From a virus: a stretch of DNA of 64,000 nt. Under the pieces are notes generated by a model. That model was not told the DNA's origin and did no database searches. It was given only the letters and a program-made list of their open reading frames with translations. Where the stretch lies: the IMG/VR virus record IMGVR_UViG_3300022562_001757, positions 1 to 64,000 of that record. The stretch is one strand, 5' to 3'. Of this stretch, positions 6,726 to 10,285 are shown piece by piece (positions within the stretch are counted from its first letter, which is position 1; every line of letters begins with the position of its first letter). The position numbers were made by a program, and so were the translations under genes.

Positions 6726-6841
6726 GGCATTTACCCCTTGTTTTTGTATGACTCGCACGGGCCTGAGTACATCCATACGCCATAAGTGGCGCCGTTCACC
6801 CTAAATCCGTGCGAGTCTTTCTTTTGCAAACTCCTTCTGAT

Positions 6842-6871
6842 GGTGTGCCACTACAGTGATACGTTGTCAAT
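6842..6871 (-). promoter_or_regulatory. sigma70-like promoter with conserved spacer
   Basis: ATTGACA-ACGTATCACTGTAGTGG(17)-CACACC; weak -10. Confidence 0.55.
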
Positions 6872-6878
6872 ACTGATT

Positions 6879-7220
6879 CTAGGATTTTTCTTTCAAGCTG
6901 CGAATGGCATCCATGATGGCCGCGTGCGCTTCGCCGGTTTTATCCAGCGCGTCTGCCTTTCGCGCCAACATTTCCAGCATTTCATTGCGCTCTTGCCGAC
7001 GTCCACTGCCGTAGGTGAATCCTTCCACAGTGTCCGCCGCAGAAAGTAGCGCTCCGTGTGCTGCCTGCACGATACCATCCCAGTCTTTGGCCTTAAGACG
7101 TAGCATTGCCGCAATGTCCTTCTGGGCATCGTGGCGACCACGGCGATAGGCACTTTTGATCTTGGAGTCTTCTGAAACTTGCCGAAGGCTCTTTTTCACA
7201 GGTAGGGCGTTTATTGGCAC
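6879..7220 (-). CDS. hypothetical protein
   Basis: 113-aa ORF with AAAGGA RBS; internal duplicated MLRLKA / MLARKA segments. Confidence 0.6.
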   Translation of the reverse strand: MPINALPVKKSLRQVSEDSKIKSAYRRGRHDAQKDIAAMLRLKAKDWDGIVQAAHGALLSAADTVEGFTYGSGRRQERNEMLEMLARKADALDKTGEAHAAIMDAIRSLKEKS

Positions 7221-7272
7221 GTCATTTTCCTTTACCGGTTTTGGTCTTCAGATGTCTGCGTCGACAGGCCGC

Positions 7273-7611
7273 TTAGTTTTCTTCACGGCCGACCTCGTTC
7301 AAAGCAGCGATAAGCAAACCGCGAGATTTCTGGTCAAGAGCGGAAATAGCATGATTCAGCCGTTTCCGTATTAGCCGTTCGGCGTGCACCTCGAAGTTTT
7401 CGAGCATCTGGATAGTCTTGAGGACCTCGCGCAGCTGAAGGCGATACGGATGCCGCCACCACGGTTCATTCTTGATGCGAACACGCAATTCGGCAGCTTT
7501 CTCGTGGAGAATGCGGGTTGTTTGGTTGGCGCGCATCAGTATGTCAAGTTGCAGCAGCATTGCTCTCATTCTCCTTTTGCACCGCGCCCGCAGGCGTAGA
7601 GCAAAATCCAT
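7273..7611 (-). CDS. hypothetical protein
   Basis: 112-aa helical ORF co-oriented with its neighbours. Confidence 0.5.
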   Translation of the reverse strand: MDFALRLRARCKRRMRAMLLQLDILMRANQTTRILHEKAAELRVRIKNEPWWRHPYRLQLREVLKTIQMLENFEVHAERLIRKRLNHAISALDQKSRGLLIAALNEVGREEN

Positions 7612-7849
7612 GGCCCGACTTGAACGGGCTGGCTTCCAAGCGCACAGACATAGTGCGGCTTTTCGGGCATGGCGCCGCTACCATCGACAGATATGTCCTA
7701 TCTGCCCTACGGTGCTTGACGGCATCAGTACCGTCTCTAAAGGCCAGCACCGCATGACCTACTGCATGACCGCCACACGACAAGAGACGCGGTCTGAGGC
7801 TAGCAGCGGAGCCTTTTAGACGCACCCAGACTTGAACTGGGAACTTTGT

Positions 7850-7858
7850 TGTTACAAT
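7850..7858 (+). promoter_or_regulatory. extended -10 promoter for a leaderless HNH transcript
   Basis: TGTTACAAT ends 5 nt before ATG 7864; no SD; TTGAAC (antisense T-loop) lies upstream. Confidence 0.5.
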
Positions 7859-7863
7859 ATAGC

Positions 7864-8493
7864 ATGAAAGCAAAACCAATGGTCAAATTAAAGTGCACGC
7901 ATTGCGGAAAACTGTTCCTTCGTAATGCGAGTCATTATCAACAAAACCTAGAGCGGCAGCAACGCATATTCTGCTCACTCGTTTGCCAAAATGAAGGAAA
8001 GAAGAAGGCATGCCAAGAACACGCTTGTAAAAACTGTGGAACGCCTACCAAGAACCCAAAGTTTTGCTCCAGAGCGTGCAGTGCTACCTATAACAACCGT
8101 AGAAGTCCAAAACGCAAGCTCCAGAAGTTGTGCAAAGTTTGCGGAAAAGCTATTAATGCCAAAGTAACCTATTGTTCTGCCTGTTTTAGGCAAAAGTGCC
8201 AGCGTATAGACAATTTGCGCCTGCAAGACGTTCAAGCACACTATGGGTCCAGAAATAGTTACACCACTATGGTTCGCCAACGGGCACGTCATGCTGCTGA
8301 GGCGCTTGGCATTCTGTCCTATTGCAGCGTTTGCGGTTACAGTGCGCATGTGCACTGCTGTCATATCAAACCCGTTAGCGCCTTTCCACTTACCACTAAG
8401 CTCAAAGTAGTTAATAGAGCTAGCAATTTGGTTGGCCTATGCCCAAATCACCATTGGGAATTCGACCACGGGTTGCTAAAATTACCTAAGTAG
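7864..8493 (+). CDS. HNH endonuclease with multiple N-terminal zinc-binding modules
   Basis: CTHC/FCSLVC/CKNC/FCSRAC/CKVC/CSAC, then CSVCGY...HCCHIKPV...N...NLVGLCPNHHWEFD; more AT-rich than its flanks. Confidence 0.9.
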   Translation: MKAKPMVKLKCTHCGKLFLRNASHYQQNLERQQRIFCSLVCQNEGKKKACQEHACKNCGTPTKNPKFCSRACSATYNNRRSPKRKLQKLCKVCGKAINAKVTYCSACFRQKCQRIDNLRLQDVQAHYGSRNSYTTMVRQRARHAAEALGILSYCSVCGYSAHVHCCHIKPVSAFPLTTKLKVVNRASNLVGLCPNHHWEFDHGLLKLPK

Positions 8494-8531
8494 GGCCGGC
8501 GCTCTACCATTGAGCTATGCGTCTGCACCCT

Positions 8532-8795
8532 CTAGTCCTGCGTTTCAATGCACGACAGCTCTTTACCGAGTCCCAACAGCGCATACGCTAAATGAGCCAG
8601 CAACTCTGCATCATGTACACGTTGCACGGTGTCACCACGATCCCCATCCAGCACGCTACCAGCAACAGCGGCCAAGCGCGCCCGCAGCACGGCCTCCACG
8701 CCTGCTTGGTAGCTTCCATTCAGCAGAGGCGTACCGTCCAGGGTTTCCCCGAAATATCGCGCCAATGCCTCAGCGATTGTCATGCGCCGGCTCAT
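8532..8795 (-). CDS. hypothetical protein
   Basis: ATG 8795 overlaps the stop of the upstream gene (ATGA); AAGGAAG upstream. Confidence 0.55.
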   Translation of the reverse strand: MSRRMTIAEALARYFGETLDGTPLLNGSYQAGVEAVLRARLAAVAGSVLDGDRGDTVQRVHDAELLAHLAYALLGLGKELSCIETQD

Positions 8796-8998
8796 CCGTG
8801 CTCTTCCTTTTTCAGCGCGCTCCTCATAGCGCAATGGTGGCACAAGTCACGTCCGCCGTCTTGGCGCCGCCACAGGCGCAGCGTTTCCAAGTTTTTTCTT
8901 AGTAGGTGTGGCTTGGCACCCGAATACGTGTAGCCGTGCCCGTAGGTGTCGTCTACGACTTTGCACTCGTCGCAAACGATCCGGATTTCGATACTCAT
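8792..8998 (-). CDS. small zinc-binding protein
   Basis: IVCDECK...W...DGGRDLCHHC; similar to 43532..43762; starts 2 nt after the tRNA-Ala 3' end. Confidence 0.6.
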   Translation of the reverse strand: MSIEIRIVCDECKVVDDTYGHGYTYSGAKPHLLRKNLETLRLWRRQDGGRDLCHHCAMRSALKKEEHG

Positions 8999-9000
8999 AG

Positions 9001-9073
9001 TGGAGGATATCGGGATCGAACCGATGACCCCCGCCGTGCAAGGGCGGTGCTCTCCCAGCTGAGCTAATCCCCC
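9001..9073 (-). tRNA. tRNA-Ala(UGC)
   Basis: GGGGGAT-TA-GCTC-AGCTGGGA-GAGC-A-CCGCC-CT-TGC-AC-GGCGG-GGGTC-ATCGG-TTCGATC-CCGAT-ATCCTCC-A; G3:U70 Ala identity; CCA not encoded. Confidence 0.97.
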
Positions 9074-9077
9074 GGGA

Positions 9078-9149
9078 TAGCGGCGGTCGGAATTGAACCG
9101 ACGTAGGCAGGCGTATGAGACCCGCTCGGAAGCCAGCATCCTCACCGCT
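9078..9149 (-). tRNA. non-canonical tRNA with CAU anticodon (Met-type)
   Basis: AGCGGTG-A-GGA-TGCTGGCT-TCC-GA-GCGGGT-CT-CAT-AC-GCCTGC-CTAC-GTCGG-TTCAATT-CCGAC-CGCCGCT-A. Confidence 0.85.
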
Positions 9150-9197
9150 GACCTGACATTATAGCGTGCCATCGTAATGTGTCTAGCGTTCCACTGC

Positions 9198-9962
9198 TCA
9201 GTCGGTCTTATCTTTAGCGTCTACCACGCTAGCTTCCAGCTGCACTGCTGGTACTTTGGCGAGCGGTTTCGGCACCACGGTGGCCGCCAATGGCATTGGC
9301 CTAGGTGCTACTGCTGCTGGCCTAGGTGCTACTGGCTGAGTATCCCTTGCGATTTTCAAAGCGTGCCGCCCATCTACAGAAATGGCAGCAGACTTGGAAA
9401 TCTCATTGAAGATCACCAGTCCGCGATCATGTAGTGTTTTAGCCACATAGATGTTTGGCCCGCGCAAGAAAAGGCGCTTGCTAGTCGAAAGGCTTTCTAG
9501 CAGCTGCCGTTGCGGAACAGTAAGTCTTGGCATCCAGGAATCGGCAGATTTCTCATCCTCGTCGTCGTCCTCGTCGTCGTCCTCGTCGTCCTCATCCTCG
9601 TCGTCGTCTAGATCGTCGTCGTCGTCGTCCTCATCCTCGTCGTCGTCTAGATCGTCCTCGTCGTCATCTTCATCGTCGTCTAGATCGTCCTCATCCTCGT
9701 CATCATCCTCGTCATCATCCTCGTCATCATCCTCGTCATCATCCTCCTCGCCCCAGTCGTCGTCGGCGCACCCACGTCCCCATTCATGGAAGTTGTGGCA
9801 CAAATTTACATATCCGGCATCGGCTACCGCTTCTGCGAGGTCCTCCCACAGATTACGGATGGCTGGTGGAATTTTCTTGGGGTTCGCCAGCACCAATGCG
9901 ATGGCGTTGTTGATGATGGAAAGGTCCGCTGACAACCTCGTTGGACGATAGACTTTTGCCAT
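9198..9962 (-). CDS. wHTH-like protein with long Asp/Glu tract (paralog 1 of 3)
   Basis: GGAGA RBS and ATG 9962; W.DL..AV.DAGY N-domain, acidic tract, W..LT.PQRQLL...RGP...GLV....A.I...GR domain, Pro/Ala tail. Confidence 0.8.
   Translation of the reverse strand: MAKVYRPTRLSADLSIINNAIALVLANPKKIPPAIRNLWEDLAEAVADAGYVNLCHNFHEWGRGCADDDWGEEDDDEDDDEDDDEDDDEDEDDLDDDEDDDEDDLDDDEDEDDDDDDLDDDEDEDDEDDDEDDDEDEKSADSWMPRLTVPQRQLLESLSTSKRLFLRGPNIYVAKTLHDRGLVIFNEISKSAAISVDGRHALKIARDTQPVAPRPAAVAPRPMPLAATVVPKPLAKVPAVQLEASVVDAKDKTD
9552..9750 (-). repeat. GAY/GAG low-complexity repeat encoding poly-Asp/Glu
   Basis: GATGATGACGAG and GACGATCTAGAC tandem units. Confidence 0.9.
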
Positions 9963-9988
9963 TTTTGGTCTCTCCGTTGTGCCGTCTG

Positions 9989-10285
9989 CTACTTCTTGCT
10001 GTGGCGTGCGCGGTGGTCTATGCACACATTGCAGCGGCACTCTACCTCGTCCTCAACCTTGATAGAAGTAAAAATCTCCACGCTACCGAAAAATTCTCCG
10101 GCCATCCCGCCTTCACCAAATAATGATCCATCGACCGGTGGAGCATACATGCTACGAATGACCTTCAATGGACGGTAAAACGCTCGCTGAGATGTCTGCT
10201 GGCAGGCTTCTTGCGCAGACTGTGCCTCTACGTACACCGGAATCAGCGGCCCGATTGAGCTGTGAAATACTACTTTGTAGTGCAT
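9989..10285 (-). CDS. hypothetical protein
   Basis: 98-aa ORF fills the gap between paralogs; ends CRCNVC. Confidence 0.55.
   Translation of the reverse strand: MHYKVVFHSSIGPLIPVYVEAQSAQEACQQTSQRAFYRPLKVIRSMYAPPVDGSLFGEGGMAGEFFGSVEIFTSIKVEDEVECRCNVCIDHRARHSKK

What the first reader, a model, noticed from the sequence alone, without database searches (positions are those of the whole stretch)
7817..8524. HNH gene inserted antisense into a tRNA, reusing tRNA parts as its own signals
Seen: both parts of one tRNA (acceptor pairs 7/7, intact D and T arms) flank a ~640-bp insert almost fully occupied by an opposite-strand Zn-finger/HNH ORF. The HNH stop codon (TAG 8491-8493) is the antisense of the anticodon loop. 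The antisense T-loop gives a TTGAAC -35-like box ahead of TGTTACAAT and a leaderless ATG. The 3' anticodon strand is missing and there is no room for a group I ribozyme. Inference: a minimal tRNA-targeting homing element, or an anticodon-less tRNA-shaped RNA processed by RNase P/Z that carries antisense HNH sequence. The undecayed arms imply recent insertion or selection.
Basis: partly seen in the sequence, partly recalled or inferred. Interest (0 to 1): 0.78.

Follow-up and report, generated by a model that had tools for sequence, protein, structure and literature searches.

The report
HNH gene splitting a phage tRNA-Val
A selfish DNA-cutting enzyme gene sits backwards in the anticodon loop of a phage valine tRNA gene with no self-splicing intron around it, so the tRNA gene is most likely broken; relatives of the enzyme live beside or inside tRNA genes.

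Summary
On the minus strand, nt 1-36 of a tRNA (8524-8490) and its variable loop, T arm and 3' acceptor strand (7846-7817) flank a 209-aa zinc-ribbon/HNH gene on the plus strand (7864-8493). The TAG stop is the complement of tRNA nt 33-35.

The 5' part looks like tRNA-Val(UAC), and it ends right after the anticodon. That is the site of the classical tRNA-Arg(CCU) group I intron. Nt 37-43 are replaced, and no ribozyme is detectable.

The enzyme belongs to a large family tied to tRNA genes:
- In bacteria it lies antisense inside group I introns of tRNA-Arg(CCU).
- In phages it is mostly free-standing next to intact tRNAs.
- Its three nearest relatives (two phages) abut intact tRNA-Val genes.

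Best reading (0.7): a homing-endonuclease gene with its own -10 box and a leaderless start has landed in its tRNA-Val target and killed it, probably recently. The insert has 44-51% G+C against 56-68% in the flanks.

A processed, functional tRNA-shaped RNA is not excluded (about 0.07).

The scan has reported the intron-borne form several times on other DNA. This ribozyme-free, spare-less form is a new variant. Cleavage and expression are untested.

The parts
8490..8524 (-). 5' part of a tRNA-Val(UAC)-like gene, canonical nt 1-36: acceptor 5' strand, D arm, anticodon-stem 5' strand, loop CC and anticodon UAC
   Evidence: Sequence. Best matches in the phage collection are annotated tRNA-Val genes, 25 of the 25 rows listed, 87.5-92.6% over 27-32 nt. 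Alignments A2 and A3 with phage tRNA-Val genes.
7864..8493 (+). Gene for a 209-aa zinc-ribbon + HNH endonuclease (ATG 7864, TAG 8491-8493). It is the only plus-strand gene in a minus-strand region.
   Evidence: Pfam HNH_2 PF13391, E 2.5e-7, 30.9 bits against a cut-off of 21. PHROG 1271 'HNH endonuclease', E 7.4e-13. All 17 invariant columns of the 35-sequence alignment A1 are kept. 267 homologues at E<=0.001. One copy in the 82.6-kb record.
8485..8493 (+). ORF tail CCT AAG TAG beyond the family's usual ...GLLKL end. The stop, and the G before it, are the complement of tRNA nt 33-36.
   Evidence: Sequence. Family C-termini in A1 and in the loci.
7847..7863 (+). Left end of the inserted cassette. 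It holds the extended -10 TGTTACAAT (7850-7858), then 5 nt before the ATG. It occupies the place of tRNA nt 37-43.
   Evidence: Sequence. TATAAT lies 6-7 nt before the ATG in relatives L005 and L009. Not listed by the promoter scan, because the upstream hexamer is 15 nt away.
7832..7837 (+). TTGAAC, the antisense of the T loop. A possible but doubtful -35 box (15-nt spacer).
   Evidence: Sequence. No conserved counterpart in relatives.
7817..7846 (-). 3' part of the same tRNA: variable loop AAGUU, T arm, acceptor 3' strand, discriminator A
   Evidence: Sequence. The stem-loop at 7825-7841 is also picked up by the scan.
9000..9073 (-). Intact tRNA-Ala(UGC), upstream in the same minus-strand tRNA cluster
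   Evidence: ARAGORN. Rfam tRNA, 63.9 bits.
9078..9149 (-). Weak tRNA-like gene with a CAU anticodon, just upstream of tRNA-Ala
   Evidence: Rfam tRNA, 27.8 bits, below the gathering score of 29. Not called by ARAGORN.
9158..9185 (-). Promoter-like site (TAGACA, 16 nt, TATAAT; 11 of 12) that could drive the minus-strand tRNA cluster through the antisense of the HNH gene
   Evidence: Consensus scan only.

Best explanation
A homing-endonuclease gene (HNH_2 type with zinc ribbons) from a lineage associated with tRNA-Val genes has been inserted, antisense, into the anticodon loop of a phage tRNA-Val(UAC) gene directly after nt 36. The insertion replaced nt 37-43.

The gene carries its own extended -10 box and probably makes a leaderless mRNA. 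It lost its own stop codon and ends at a TAG supplied by the complement of the anticodon loop.

There is no ribozyme around it and no spare tRNA beside it. The tRNA gene is therefore a dead remnant, tolerated because phage tRNA genes are dispensable. The insertion also destroys the enzyme's presumed target, which would protect this genome from its own nuclease.

Shown: the anatomy, the intact nuclease motifs, the absence of a ribozyme, the family's tie to tRNA genes, and the foreign base composition.

Inferred: expression, cleavage of intact tRNA-Val genes, spread by break repair during co-infection, and a recent arrival.
For: Anatomy.

tRNA-Val identity and a break after nt 36. Nt 36/37 is the site of the classical 'Arg.5Ug' intron (preprint 10.1101/2020.01.27.920355, main text read).

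No ribozyme:
- Rfam at E<=10 on 7000-9500 gave none.
- nhmmer with profiles of the intron's 5' and 3' core gave no core match (the 3' profile of that call also held HNH coding sequence and matched only that). The cleaner profiles gave nothing at E<=100.
- ORF-less phage introns in L015 served as positive controls and scored E 7e-10 and 1.9e-6.

Family context:
- In 56 of 189 loci with the HNH motif, a split tRNA encloses the gene. It is on the antisense strand in all 56 and on the sense strand in 0 (a control with the 5' acceptor reversed gave 11 hits).
- 46 of the 56 split genes tested carry both intron cores.
- Rfam Intron_gpI reached its gathering score in 4 of 20 loci tried.
- An intact tRNA lies within 100 nt in 31 of 77 metagenome loci, 28 of 80 genome loci and 46 of 76 viral loci.

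Nearest relatives: L198 (45% identity), L036 (44%) and L199 (42%) start 11-90 nt from the 5' end of an intact antisense tRNA-Val, UAC or GAC. On the tree of 48 long forms the window's protein forms a clade of 5 rows with them (SH-aLRT 95, quick method).

Intact enzyme: all invariant columns are kept.

Foreign composition: G+C is 0.435-0.51 across 7800-8500 and 0.56-0.68 in the flanks.
Against: - No HNH-free allele and no close relative of this phage was found, so mobility is not shown.
- The insertion is not clean: 7 nt of the target are gone. That fits illegitimate repair better than textbook homing.
- The nearest relatives sit beside an intact tRNA-Val, not inside one. That this enzyme cuts the anticodon loop is therefore a guess.
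- One member of the 5-row clade (L106, a long branch) lies next to tRNA-Arg(CCU).
- The arms are perfectly kept, which could also mean selection.
- A fold of the 708-nt minus-strand RNA keeps the acceptor and T stems (pair probabilities 0.60-0.96 and 0.83-0.99).
- Unchecked first-reader notes say the same genome holds other tRNA-shaped RNAs without anticodon arms.
- Among free-standing phage members the orientation is not biased: 24 of 46 are antisense.
Confidence: 0.7

Rival explanations
1. Remnant of a mobile group I intron. The tRNA-Val once carried a self-splicing intron with an antisense HNH gene, as tRNA-Arg(CCU) does in many bacteria. Deletions then removed both ribozyme segments and nt 37-43, leaving only the endonuclease gene.
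For: The position (after nt 36) and the antisense orientation are the same as in the intron-borne relatives. In those relatives the ribozyme is about 59 nt on one side of the ORF and about 176 nt on the other (medians). Two deletions would therefore be enough.
Against: The window's protein is a long form with an N-terminal zinc ribbon. Its nearest relatives (L036, L198, L199) are free-standing. The intron-borne genes are almost all the short form of about 155 aa. No tRNA-Val intron turned up in the 271 loci fetched for the family. No ribozyme residue is detectable. Two independent deletions that spare the ORF exactly are less simple than one insertion.
Confidence: 0.15
2. Functional tRNA-shaped RNA. 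The minus-strand transcript folds its two ends into an acceptor/T-arm minihelix and is cut out by RNase P and a 3' nuclease. It acts as an antisense RNA against the HNH mRNA, or as a decoy for tRNA-directed enzymes.
For: All 7 acceptor pairs and the T and D arms are intact. In a fold of the 708-nt RNA the acceptor pairs have probability 0.60-0.96 and the T stem 0.83-0.99. The cluster lies downstream of a strong promoter-like site on the minus strand. That a minihelix is enough for RNase P is established knowledge, recalled here. Unchecked notes report other anticodon-less tRNA mimics in this genome.
Against: The fold was given exact tRNA ends, which favours end pairing. The D stem has probability 0.1. 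In the related pair L013 versus L011/L012 (96.5% identical over 1164 nt) the 5' fragment is simply absent from two of the three. The low G+C of the insert points to a recent arrival, which by itself explains undecayed arms.
Confidence: 0.07
3. Two unrelated tRNA fragments that pair by coincidence, or an assembly chimera.
For: Phage tRNA arrays contain orphan T arms. Several are seen near HNH genes in relatives.
Against: 7 of 7 Watson-Crick pairs between the two fragments. Shuffles gave 0.083 hits per genome under looser rules. A second assembly shows the same junctions without a difference. Similar split genes occur in other loci.
Confidence: 0.03

Closest known systems
Free-standing homing endonucleases in phage tRNA clusters, e.g. 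T4 SegB (review PMC2988022, passages read: GIY-YIG, inserted between tRNA-Arg and tRNA-Ile, target given as 'tRNA intergenic region'). T5 F-Tfl HNH enzymes are recalled only.
   Same: A selfish nuclease gene resident in a phage tRNA gene cluster. Spread is expected through break repair in mixed infections ('intronless homing').
   Different: SegB lies between intact tRNA genes and belongs to another nuclease family. Here the gene lies inside a tRNA gene, antisense, and destroys it.
[quoted passage not shown]
   Same: Insertion directly after anticodon nt 36. Relatives of this very HNH family occupy such introns, antisense.
   Different: No ribozyme, nt 37-43 lost, -1 base C instead of U, host tRNA is Val. 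I-Ssp6803I belongs to another fold family and is encoded in the sense direction (recalled).
Antisense homing-endonuclease genes in nuclear rDNA group I introns (PMC9548176, search listing and abstract start only)
   Same: The endonuclease gene is read from the strand opposite to the host RNA gene.
   Different: Eukaryotic rDNA, His-Cys box enzymes, ribozyme present.
'Fractured genes' split by a free-standing homing-endonuclease gene (PMC2677866, search listing and abstract start only)
   Same: A host gene is broken into two adjacent pieces by an inserted endonuclease gene.
   Different: There the host products are rejoined by split inteins. Here no rejoining device (ribozyme, bulge-helix-bulge motif or spare gene) is visible.
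   Same: A ribozyme-free HNH gene, antisense, between a 5' and a 3' fragment of one tRNA gene.
   Different: Those break the D loop of tRNA-Arg and bring a replacement tRNA. The window breaks the anticodon loop of tRNA-Val and has only 46 nt between the ATG and the tRNA's 3' end, so there is no room for a spare.

Membership tests
HNH endonuclease (Pfam HNH_2, PF13391) | Profile match above the curated cut-off | tested here: met
   E 2.5e-7, 30.9 bits against a cut-off of 21, residues 154-205. PHROG 1271, E 7.4e-13. Weak sequence link to the HNH domain of TagI (6ghs, E 3.2e-4).
HNH endonuclease (Pfam HNH_2, PF13391) | Conserved His/Asn/His and Cys ligands of the motif | tested here: met
   C154, C157, H167, N184, N188, C193, H197, E199 and D201 are invariant in 35 sequences including the window's. 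Which residue does what is recalled, not tested.
HNH endonuclease (Pfam HNH_2, PF13391) | beta-beta-alpha-metal fold | not tested
   Structure prediction was not accepting jobs.
Homing endonuclease gene (mobile) | Presence/absence polymorphism between otherwise like genomes | tested here: inconclusive
   No close relative of this phage was available. Only the probable source run holds the stretch, as contigs, with no joint.
Homing endonuclease gene (mobile) | Site-specific cleavage of the allele that lacks the gene | not testable with these tools
   Needs enzyme and substrate.
Homing endonuclease gene (mobile) | Recurrent residence in or beside one kind of conserved host gene | tested here: met
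   tRNA genes. tRNA-Val for the window's clade.
Mobile group I intron in a tRNA | Ribozyme core (P3-P9) around the ORF | tested here: not met
   Rfam at E<=10 gave none. Core profiles gave none, while control introns scored.
Mobile group I intron in a tRNA | Both exons complete, so that splicing would restore the tRNA | tested here: not met
   Nt 37-43 are missing: CAACA stands where GCCGG is needed.
Mobile group I intron in a tRNA | Insertion within the anticodon loop | tested here: met
   The break follows nt 36. This rests on reading UAC as the anticodon.
Functional tRNA gene | Complete cloverleaf recognised by tRNA finders | tested here: not met
   ARAGORN, with and without introns allowed, and Rfam call nothing at 7817-8524.
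tmRNA-like RNA (tRNA-like ends with a long insert) | tmRNA call, alanine-type acceptor | tested here: not met
   ARAGORN finds no tmRNA. Acceptor position 3:70 is A:U (sequence). The G3:U70 rule is recalled.

The most novel reading that the evidence does not exclude
The two tRNA-Val pieces are kept on purpose. Their acceptor/T-arm minihelix lets RNase P and a 3' nuclease cut a roughly 700-nt RNA out of the phage's tRNA-operon transcript. That RNA is the exact antisense of the endonuclease mRNA. The phage would then hold its selfish nuclease in check with a tRNA-handled antisense RNA, or the nuclease gene would use it to time its own expression.
Probability: 0.07. Interest if true: 0.75.

Novelty: new variant of a known kind. 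Interest (0 to 1): 0.5.

Why it matters
Homing-endonuclease genes are thought to survive by hiding in introns, inteins or intergenic DNA, because landing in a gene would harm the host. This one family shows four solutions side by side:
- inside a self-splicing intron;
- beside an intact tRNA;
- inside a broken tRNA together with a spare tRNA;
- in this window, naked inside a tRNA with nothing to repair the damage.

The last state sits at the exact nucleotide where classical tRNA introns sit. That makes the family a good natural series for a long-standing question: how do endonuclease genes and introns come together, endonuclease first or intron first?

For this phage alone, the practical meaning is modest: one tRNA gene has probably been lost to a selfish element.

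Tried and rejected
- Intact allele. An exact 24-mer of the 5' part found 0 viral contigs. Relatives found through the neighbouring 283-aa protein are only 41-42% identical and carry other tRNAs at that place.
- Isotype from tRNAs in my own loci gave no clear answer. The annotated phage collection did. The 3' part alone gave only weak, mixed matches: Met, Arg, Leu and coding genes.
- aragorn's call of 'tRNA-Ser with a 204-nt intron' at 67254-67551 of the genome is a ghost. Rfam finds an ordinary tRNA at 67254-67333 and no intron at E<=1.
- My first 3'-core profile was contaminated with HNH coding sequence and matched the ORF of the window and of L002. I rebuilt it.
- Rfam's Intron_gpI reached its gathering score in only 4 of 20 intron-bearing loci tried. 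The count of introns therefore rests mainly on my own profiles, and 33 of the 46 positives were the seeds of those profiles.
- The split hits in L199 (963 nt) and L218 (915 nt) have poor D stems. I took them for chance.
- Sequencing runs: no RNA holder is listed. One DNA run, the probable source, holds the stretch as contigs, with no joint and no alternative form. Two sister runs cover only the tRNA-Ala part.
- Papers. Searches listed no paper on an HNH gene inside a tRNA gene without an intron, nor on antisense HNH genes in bacterial tRNA introns. The review PMC3984707 has no occurrence of 'antisense', 'opposite' or 'HNH'. [quoted passage not shown] Its Table 1 is an image and its supplementary files were not seen, so a tRNA-Val intron class may be listed there.
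- A possible second, decayed tRNA copy at about 7606-7700 (minus strand) scored too low to claim.
Full report
WHAT IS THERE

The window is the first 64 kb of an 82,653-base IMG/VR virus record that CheckV rates 24% complete. The genes around the finding all run on the minus strand.

Read on the minus strand, 8524->8490 gives a textbook tRNA 5' part: acceptor AGACGCA, UA, D arm GCUC-AAUGGUA-GAGC, G, stem strand CCGGC, then CC-UAC. 7846->7817 gives AAGUU, T arm CCCAG-UUCAAGU-CUGGG, acceptor strand UGCGUCU and discriminator A. The two acceptor strands pair 7 of 7.

Between them lies a plus-strand ORF, ATG 7864 to TAG 8491-8493, 209 aa. The TAG is the complement of tRNA nt 33-35. The 3' strand of the anticodon stem is missing: CAACA stands where GCCGG is needed.

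ARAGORN, with or without introns allowed, and Rfam at E<=10 call neither a tRNA nor a group I intron here. They do call tRNA-Ala at 9000-9073 and a weak CAU tRNA-like gene at 9078-9149.

Under deliberately loose rules, shuffled genomes give 0.083 such split tRNAs each, with 5 of 60 shuffles giving a hit. Logan's contig from the only run that holds the stretch reproduces 6800-9075 exactly.

THE PROTEIN

- Pfam HNH_2 is matched above its cut-off, and PHROG 1271 'HNH endonuclease' at E 7.4e-13.
- 267 homologues were found at E<=0.001.
- In a 35-sequence alignment (A1) the window's protein keeps all 17 invariant columns: three CxxC-type zinc-ribbon pairs and the HNH residues.
- Relative to most of the family it has an extra N-terminal zinc ribbon of about 54 aa. 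Some phage members share this 'long form'.
- The record holds one copy.
- No structure could be predicted.

WHICH tRNA, AND WHERE IT IS BROKEN

Searched alone against annotated phage genomes, the 5' part hits tRNA-Val genes in all 25 rows listed (Streptomyces phages, 87.5-92.6% over 27-32 nt). Alignment with those genes, and with the tRNA-Val genes of L036, L198 and L199, shows shared A1:U72, the short D loop, and a match running through CC-UAC. I therefore read the gene as tRNA-Val(UAC), kept up to nt 36.

The break directly after the third anticodon base is the site of the classical tRNA-Arg(CCU) intron, 'Arg.5Ug' in Williams' nomenclature (preprint, main text read). The 3' part resumes at about nt 44.

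The isotype call rests on about 35 nt and is moderately sure. The 3' part alone gave no isotype.

THE FAMILY LIVES ON tRNA GENES

I fetched homologous loci from four scans:
- viral contigs with the protein (31 loci);
- metagenome contigs with A1 (80 loci);
- genome contigs with A1 (80 loci);
- viral contigs with A1 (80 loci).

| Set | Loci with the HNH motif | Intact tRNA within 100 nt | Of these, antisense |
|---|---|---|---|
| Viral, protein query | 31 | 14 | 11 |
| Metagenome | 77 | 31 | 24 |
| Genomes | 80 | 28 | 28 |
| Viral, A1 query | 76 | 46 | 24 |

The neighbour is most often tRNA-Arg(UCU or CCU), then tRNA-Met(CAU). Many ORFs run on into the antisense of the neighbouring tRNA, which gives tails such as ...GLEPS.

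Allowing long introns changes the picture for the loci with 'no tRNA'. aragorn calls tRNA-Arg(CCU) with an intron of about 640-715 nt enclosing the HNH gene on the opposite strand in dozens of loci from Chloroflexota, cyanobacteria, Planctomycetota and others.

My own split-tRNA rule finds an enclosing split tRNA in 56 of 189 loci. All 56 are antisense to the HNH gene and none is sense. The control with the 5' acceptor reversed gave 11 hits.

Rfam's group I intron model reaches its gathering score in 4 of 20 such loci tried. Profiles built from the two intron flanks score in 46 of 56 split genes tested, of which 33 were the seeds and 13 were not.

So this enzyme family is, in bacteria, the antisense passenger of IC3-type tRNA-Arg introns. 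Earlier notes of this scan report the same layout in tRNA-Leu, tRNA(CAU) and tRNA-Arg(UCU) on other DNA, and found no description of it. I reached the tRNA-Arg(CCU) case before reading those notes. My own searches also listed no paper on it.

THE WINDOW HAS NO RIBOZYME

In the intron-borne relatives, medians of 59 nt of ribozyme separate the HNH stop from exon 1 and 176 nt separate the ATG from exon 2. In the window the figures are 0 and about 17-22 nt.

Rfam and both core profiles find nothing. ORF-less phage tRNA introns in L015 served as positive controls and do score.

Eight of the 56 split genes tested lack any ribozyme signal: the window, L002, L013, L055, L056, L111, L135 and L177. Rfam at E<=1 agrees for L055, L111, L135 and L177. 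L246 and L257 of the second viral set look the same.

In most of the others the broken gene is a tRNA-Arg cut in the D loop. Between the HNH start and the 3' fragment lies a complete but oddly built tRNA-Arg(YCU). The window has neither ribozyme nor spare. In this sample it is the only naked case.

ITS NEAREST RELATIVES POINT TO tRNA-Val

The closest long-form proteins are L198 (45% identity, on a 340-kb phage contig), L036 (44%, apparently the same phage type) and L199 (42%). All three are free-standing. Their start codons lie 11-90 nt from the 5' end of an intact, antisense tRNA-Val, UAC in two and GAC in one.

On a tree of 48 long forms the window joins these three and L106 in a clade with SH-aLRT 95. 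The method was 'quick', and L106 is a long branch that sits beside tRNA-Arg. On the larger FastTree of 173 rows no starred clade held the window. The ribozyme-free split state needed 8 changes for 10 rows, so it has arisen several times.

HOW IT MOST LIKELY WORKS

Shown:
- an intact nuclease gene, antisense in a tRNA-Val gene at nt 36/37;
- seven nucleotides of the tRNA replaced;
- no ribozyme and no spare tRNA;
- insert G+C of 0.435-0.51 against 0.56-0.68 in the flanks.

Inferred, step by step:
1. The gene is transcribed from its own extended -10 (TGTTACAAT, 7850-7858), and the mRNA starts at or next to the ATG. Relatives L005 and L009 have TATAAT 6-7 nt before their ATG. Others, such as L036 and L199, use a Shine-Dalgarno sequence.
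2. The enzyme recognises tRNA-Val genes of phages that lack it, and a break there is repaired from the carrier genome.
3. In this genome the insertion itself removes the site.
4. The tRNA is dead.
5. The arrival is recent, which explains the undecayed arms.

The loss of 7 nt, and of the gene's own stop codon, suggests an untidy, possibly illegitimate, repair event rather than clean homing.

RIVALS

- A decayed intron (0.15). This is less simple, and the free-standing nearest relatives do not favour it.
- A functional tRNA-shaped RNA (0.07). The acceptor and T stems are predicted to form in the 708-nt RNA, and unchecked notes describe other anticodon-less tRNA mimics in this genome. Against it, the L013 versus L011/L012 comparison shows such a 5' fragment being lost without consequence at 96.5% identity.
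- Coincidence or chimera (0.03).

COMPARISON WITH WHAT IS KNOWN

The element works like a free-standing homing endonuclease of a phage tRNA cluster, with T4 SegB as the studied example. Unlike SegB it sits inside its presumed target.

It shares its site and strand with intron-borne relatives but fails the membership test for a group I intron, because the core is absent and exon 2 is incomplete.

As an arrangement it resembles the 'fractured genes' of Dassa and co-workers (abstract start only), minus the rejoining device.

VERDICT

A real and tidy observation. The element is a new variant, the naked form, of a tRNA-dwelling HNH family whose intron-borne form this scan has already met several times and which seems not to be in print. 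Interest is moderate: the single locus is probably a dead tRNA, but the family series is instructive.

Noticed in passing
L013:980-1055(-), L002:3918-3994(-), L111:70-146(-), L177:1392-1468(-) and 12 further loci (alignment A4): A tRNA-Arg(UCU/CCU)-like RNA with a rearranged core. A 3-bp 'D stem' encloses the anticodon arm, and a D-loop-like GUAAYUGG follows it in the variable-loop position. In 16 distinct sequences, 304 of 304 cells pair and 17 of 19 pairs show changes on both sides, including 2 of the 3 pairs of the odd helix (I drew the structure by eye from these same sequences). The motif search found it in 21 loci, always antisense to the HNH gene; in L002, L013, L111 and L177 it lies next to the HNH gene inside a broken tRNA-Arg. 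Rfam scores some copies as tRNA at 27-39 bits. An earlier first-reader note saw one copy.
   Followed up: partly
L015:4472-4761(-) and L015:6118-6421(-): Two phage tRNA genes (Gln-UUG and Ala-UGC by aragorn) with ORF-less introns of about 206-208 nt. They score as group I introns below Rfam's gathering score (35 and 40.9 bits, E 1.7e-5 and 2.9e-7). One of them directly abuts a free-standing HNH gene of this family.
   Followed up: partly
window 7606-7700 (-): A T-arm-like hairpin GCCCG-UUCAAGU-CGGGC (7629-7613) has the same loop as the split tRNA's T loop. It lies directly before the start codon of the 112-aa ORF 7273-7611. About 45 nt upstream there is a stretch resembling the D arm of the split tRNA. 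It could be an older tRNA remnant or a processing signal. The alignment scores were low.
   Followed up: partly
window 9198-10040 (-): A 280-aa ORF with a run of about 90 residues made almost wholly of Asp and Glu (DDDEDDD... repeats), next to the tRNA cluster. No family match beyond a weak chance hit.
   Followed up: no
L002:893-966(-): The phage contig with the second-best HNH relative carries a tRNA with a CUA anticodon (ARAGORN calls it 'Pyl'; Rfam tRNA 61.2 bits). This is a possible amber suppressor and a hint of stop-codon recoding in that phage.
   Followed up: no
genome 66000-66126 (locus L196:12-126, minus strand), beyond the window: A weak Rfam match to YrlA (Y RNA-like), 24.2 bits, E 0.49, near further tRNA genes. 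Unchecked first-reader notes describe permuted tRNA mimics there.
   Followed up: no
L037:779-852(-) with L037:231-307(-); L111:676-748(-): Some loci hold an intact tRNA-Arg(UCU) on the stop-codon side of the HNH gene, plus a 5' fragment, the odd spare tRNA and a 3' fragment. This looks like nested or repeated insertions into tRNA-Arg genes.
   Followed up: no
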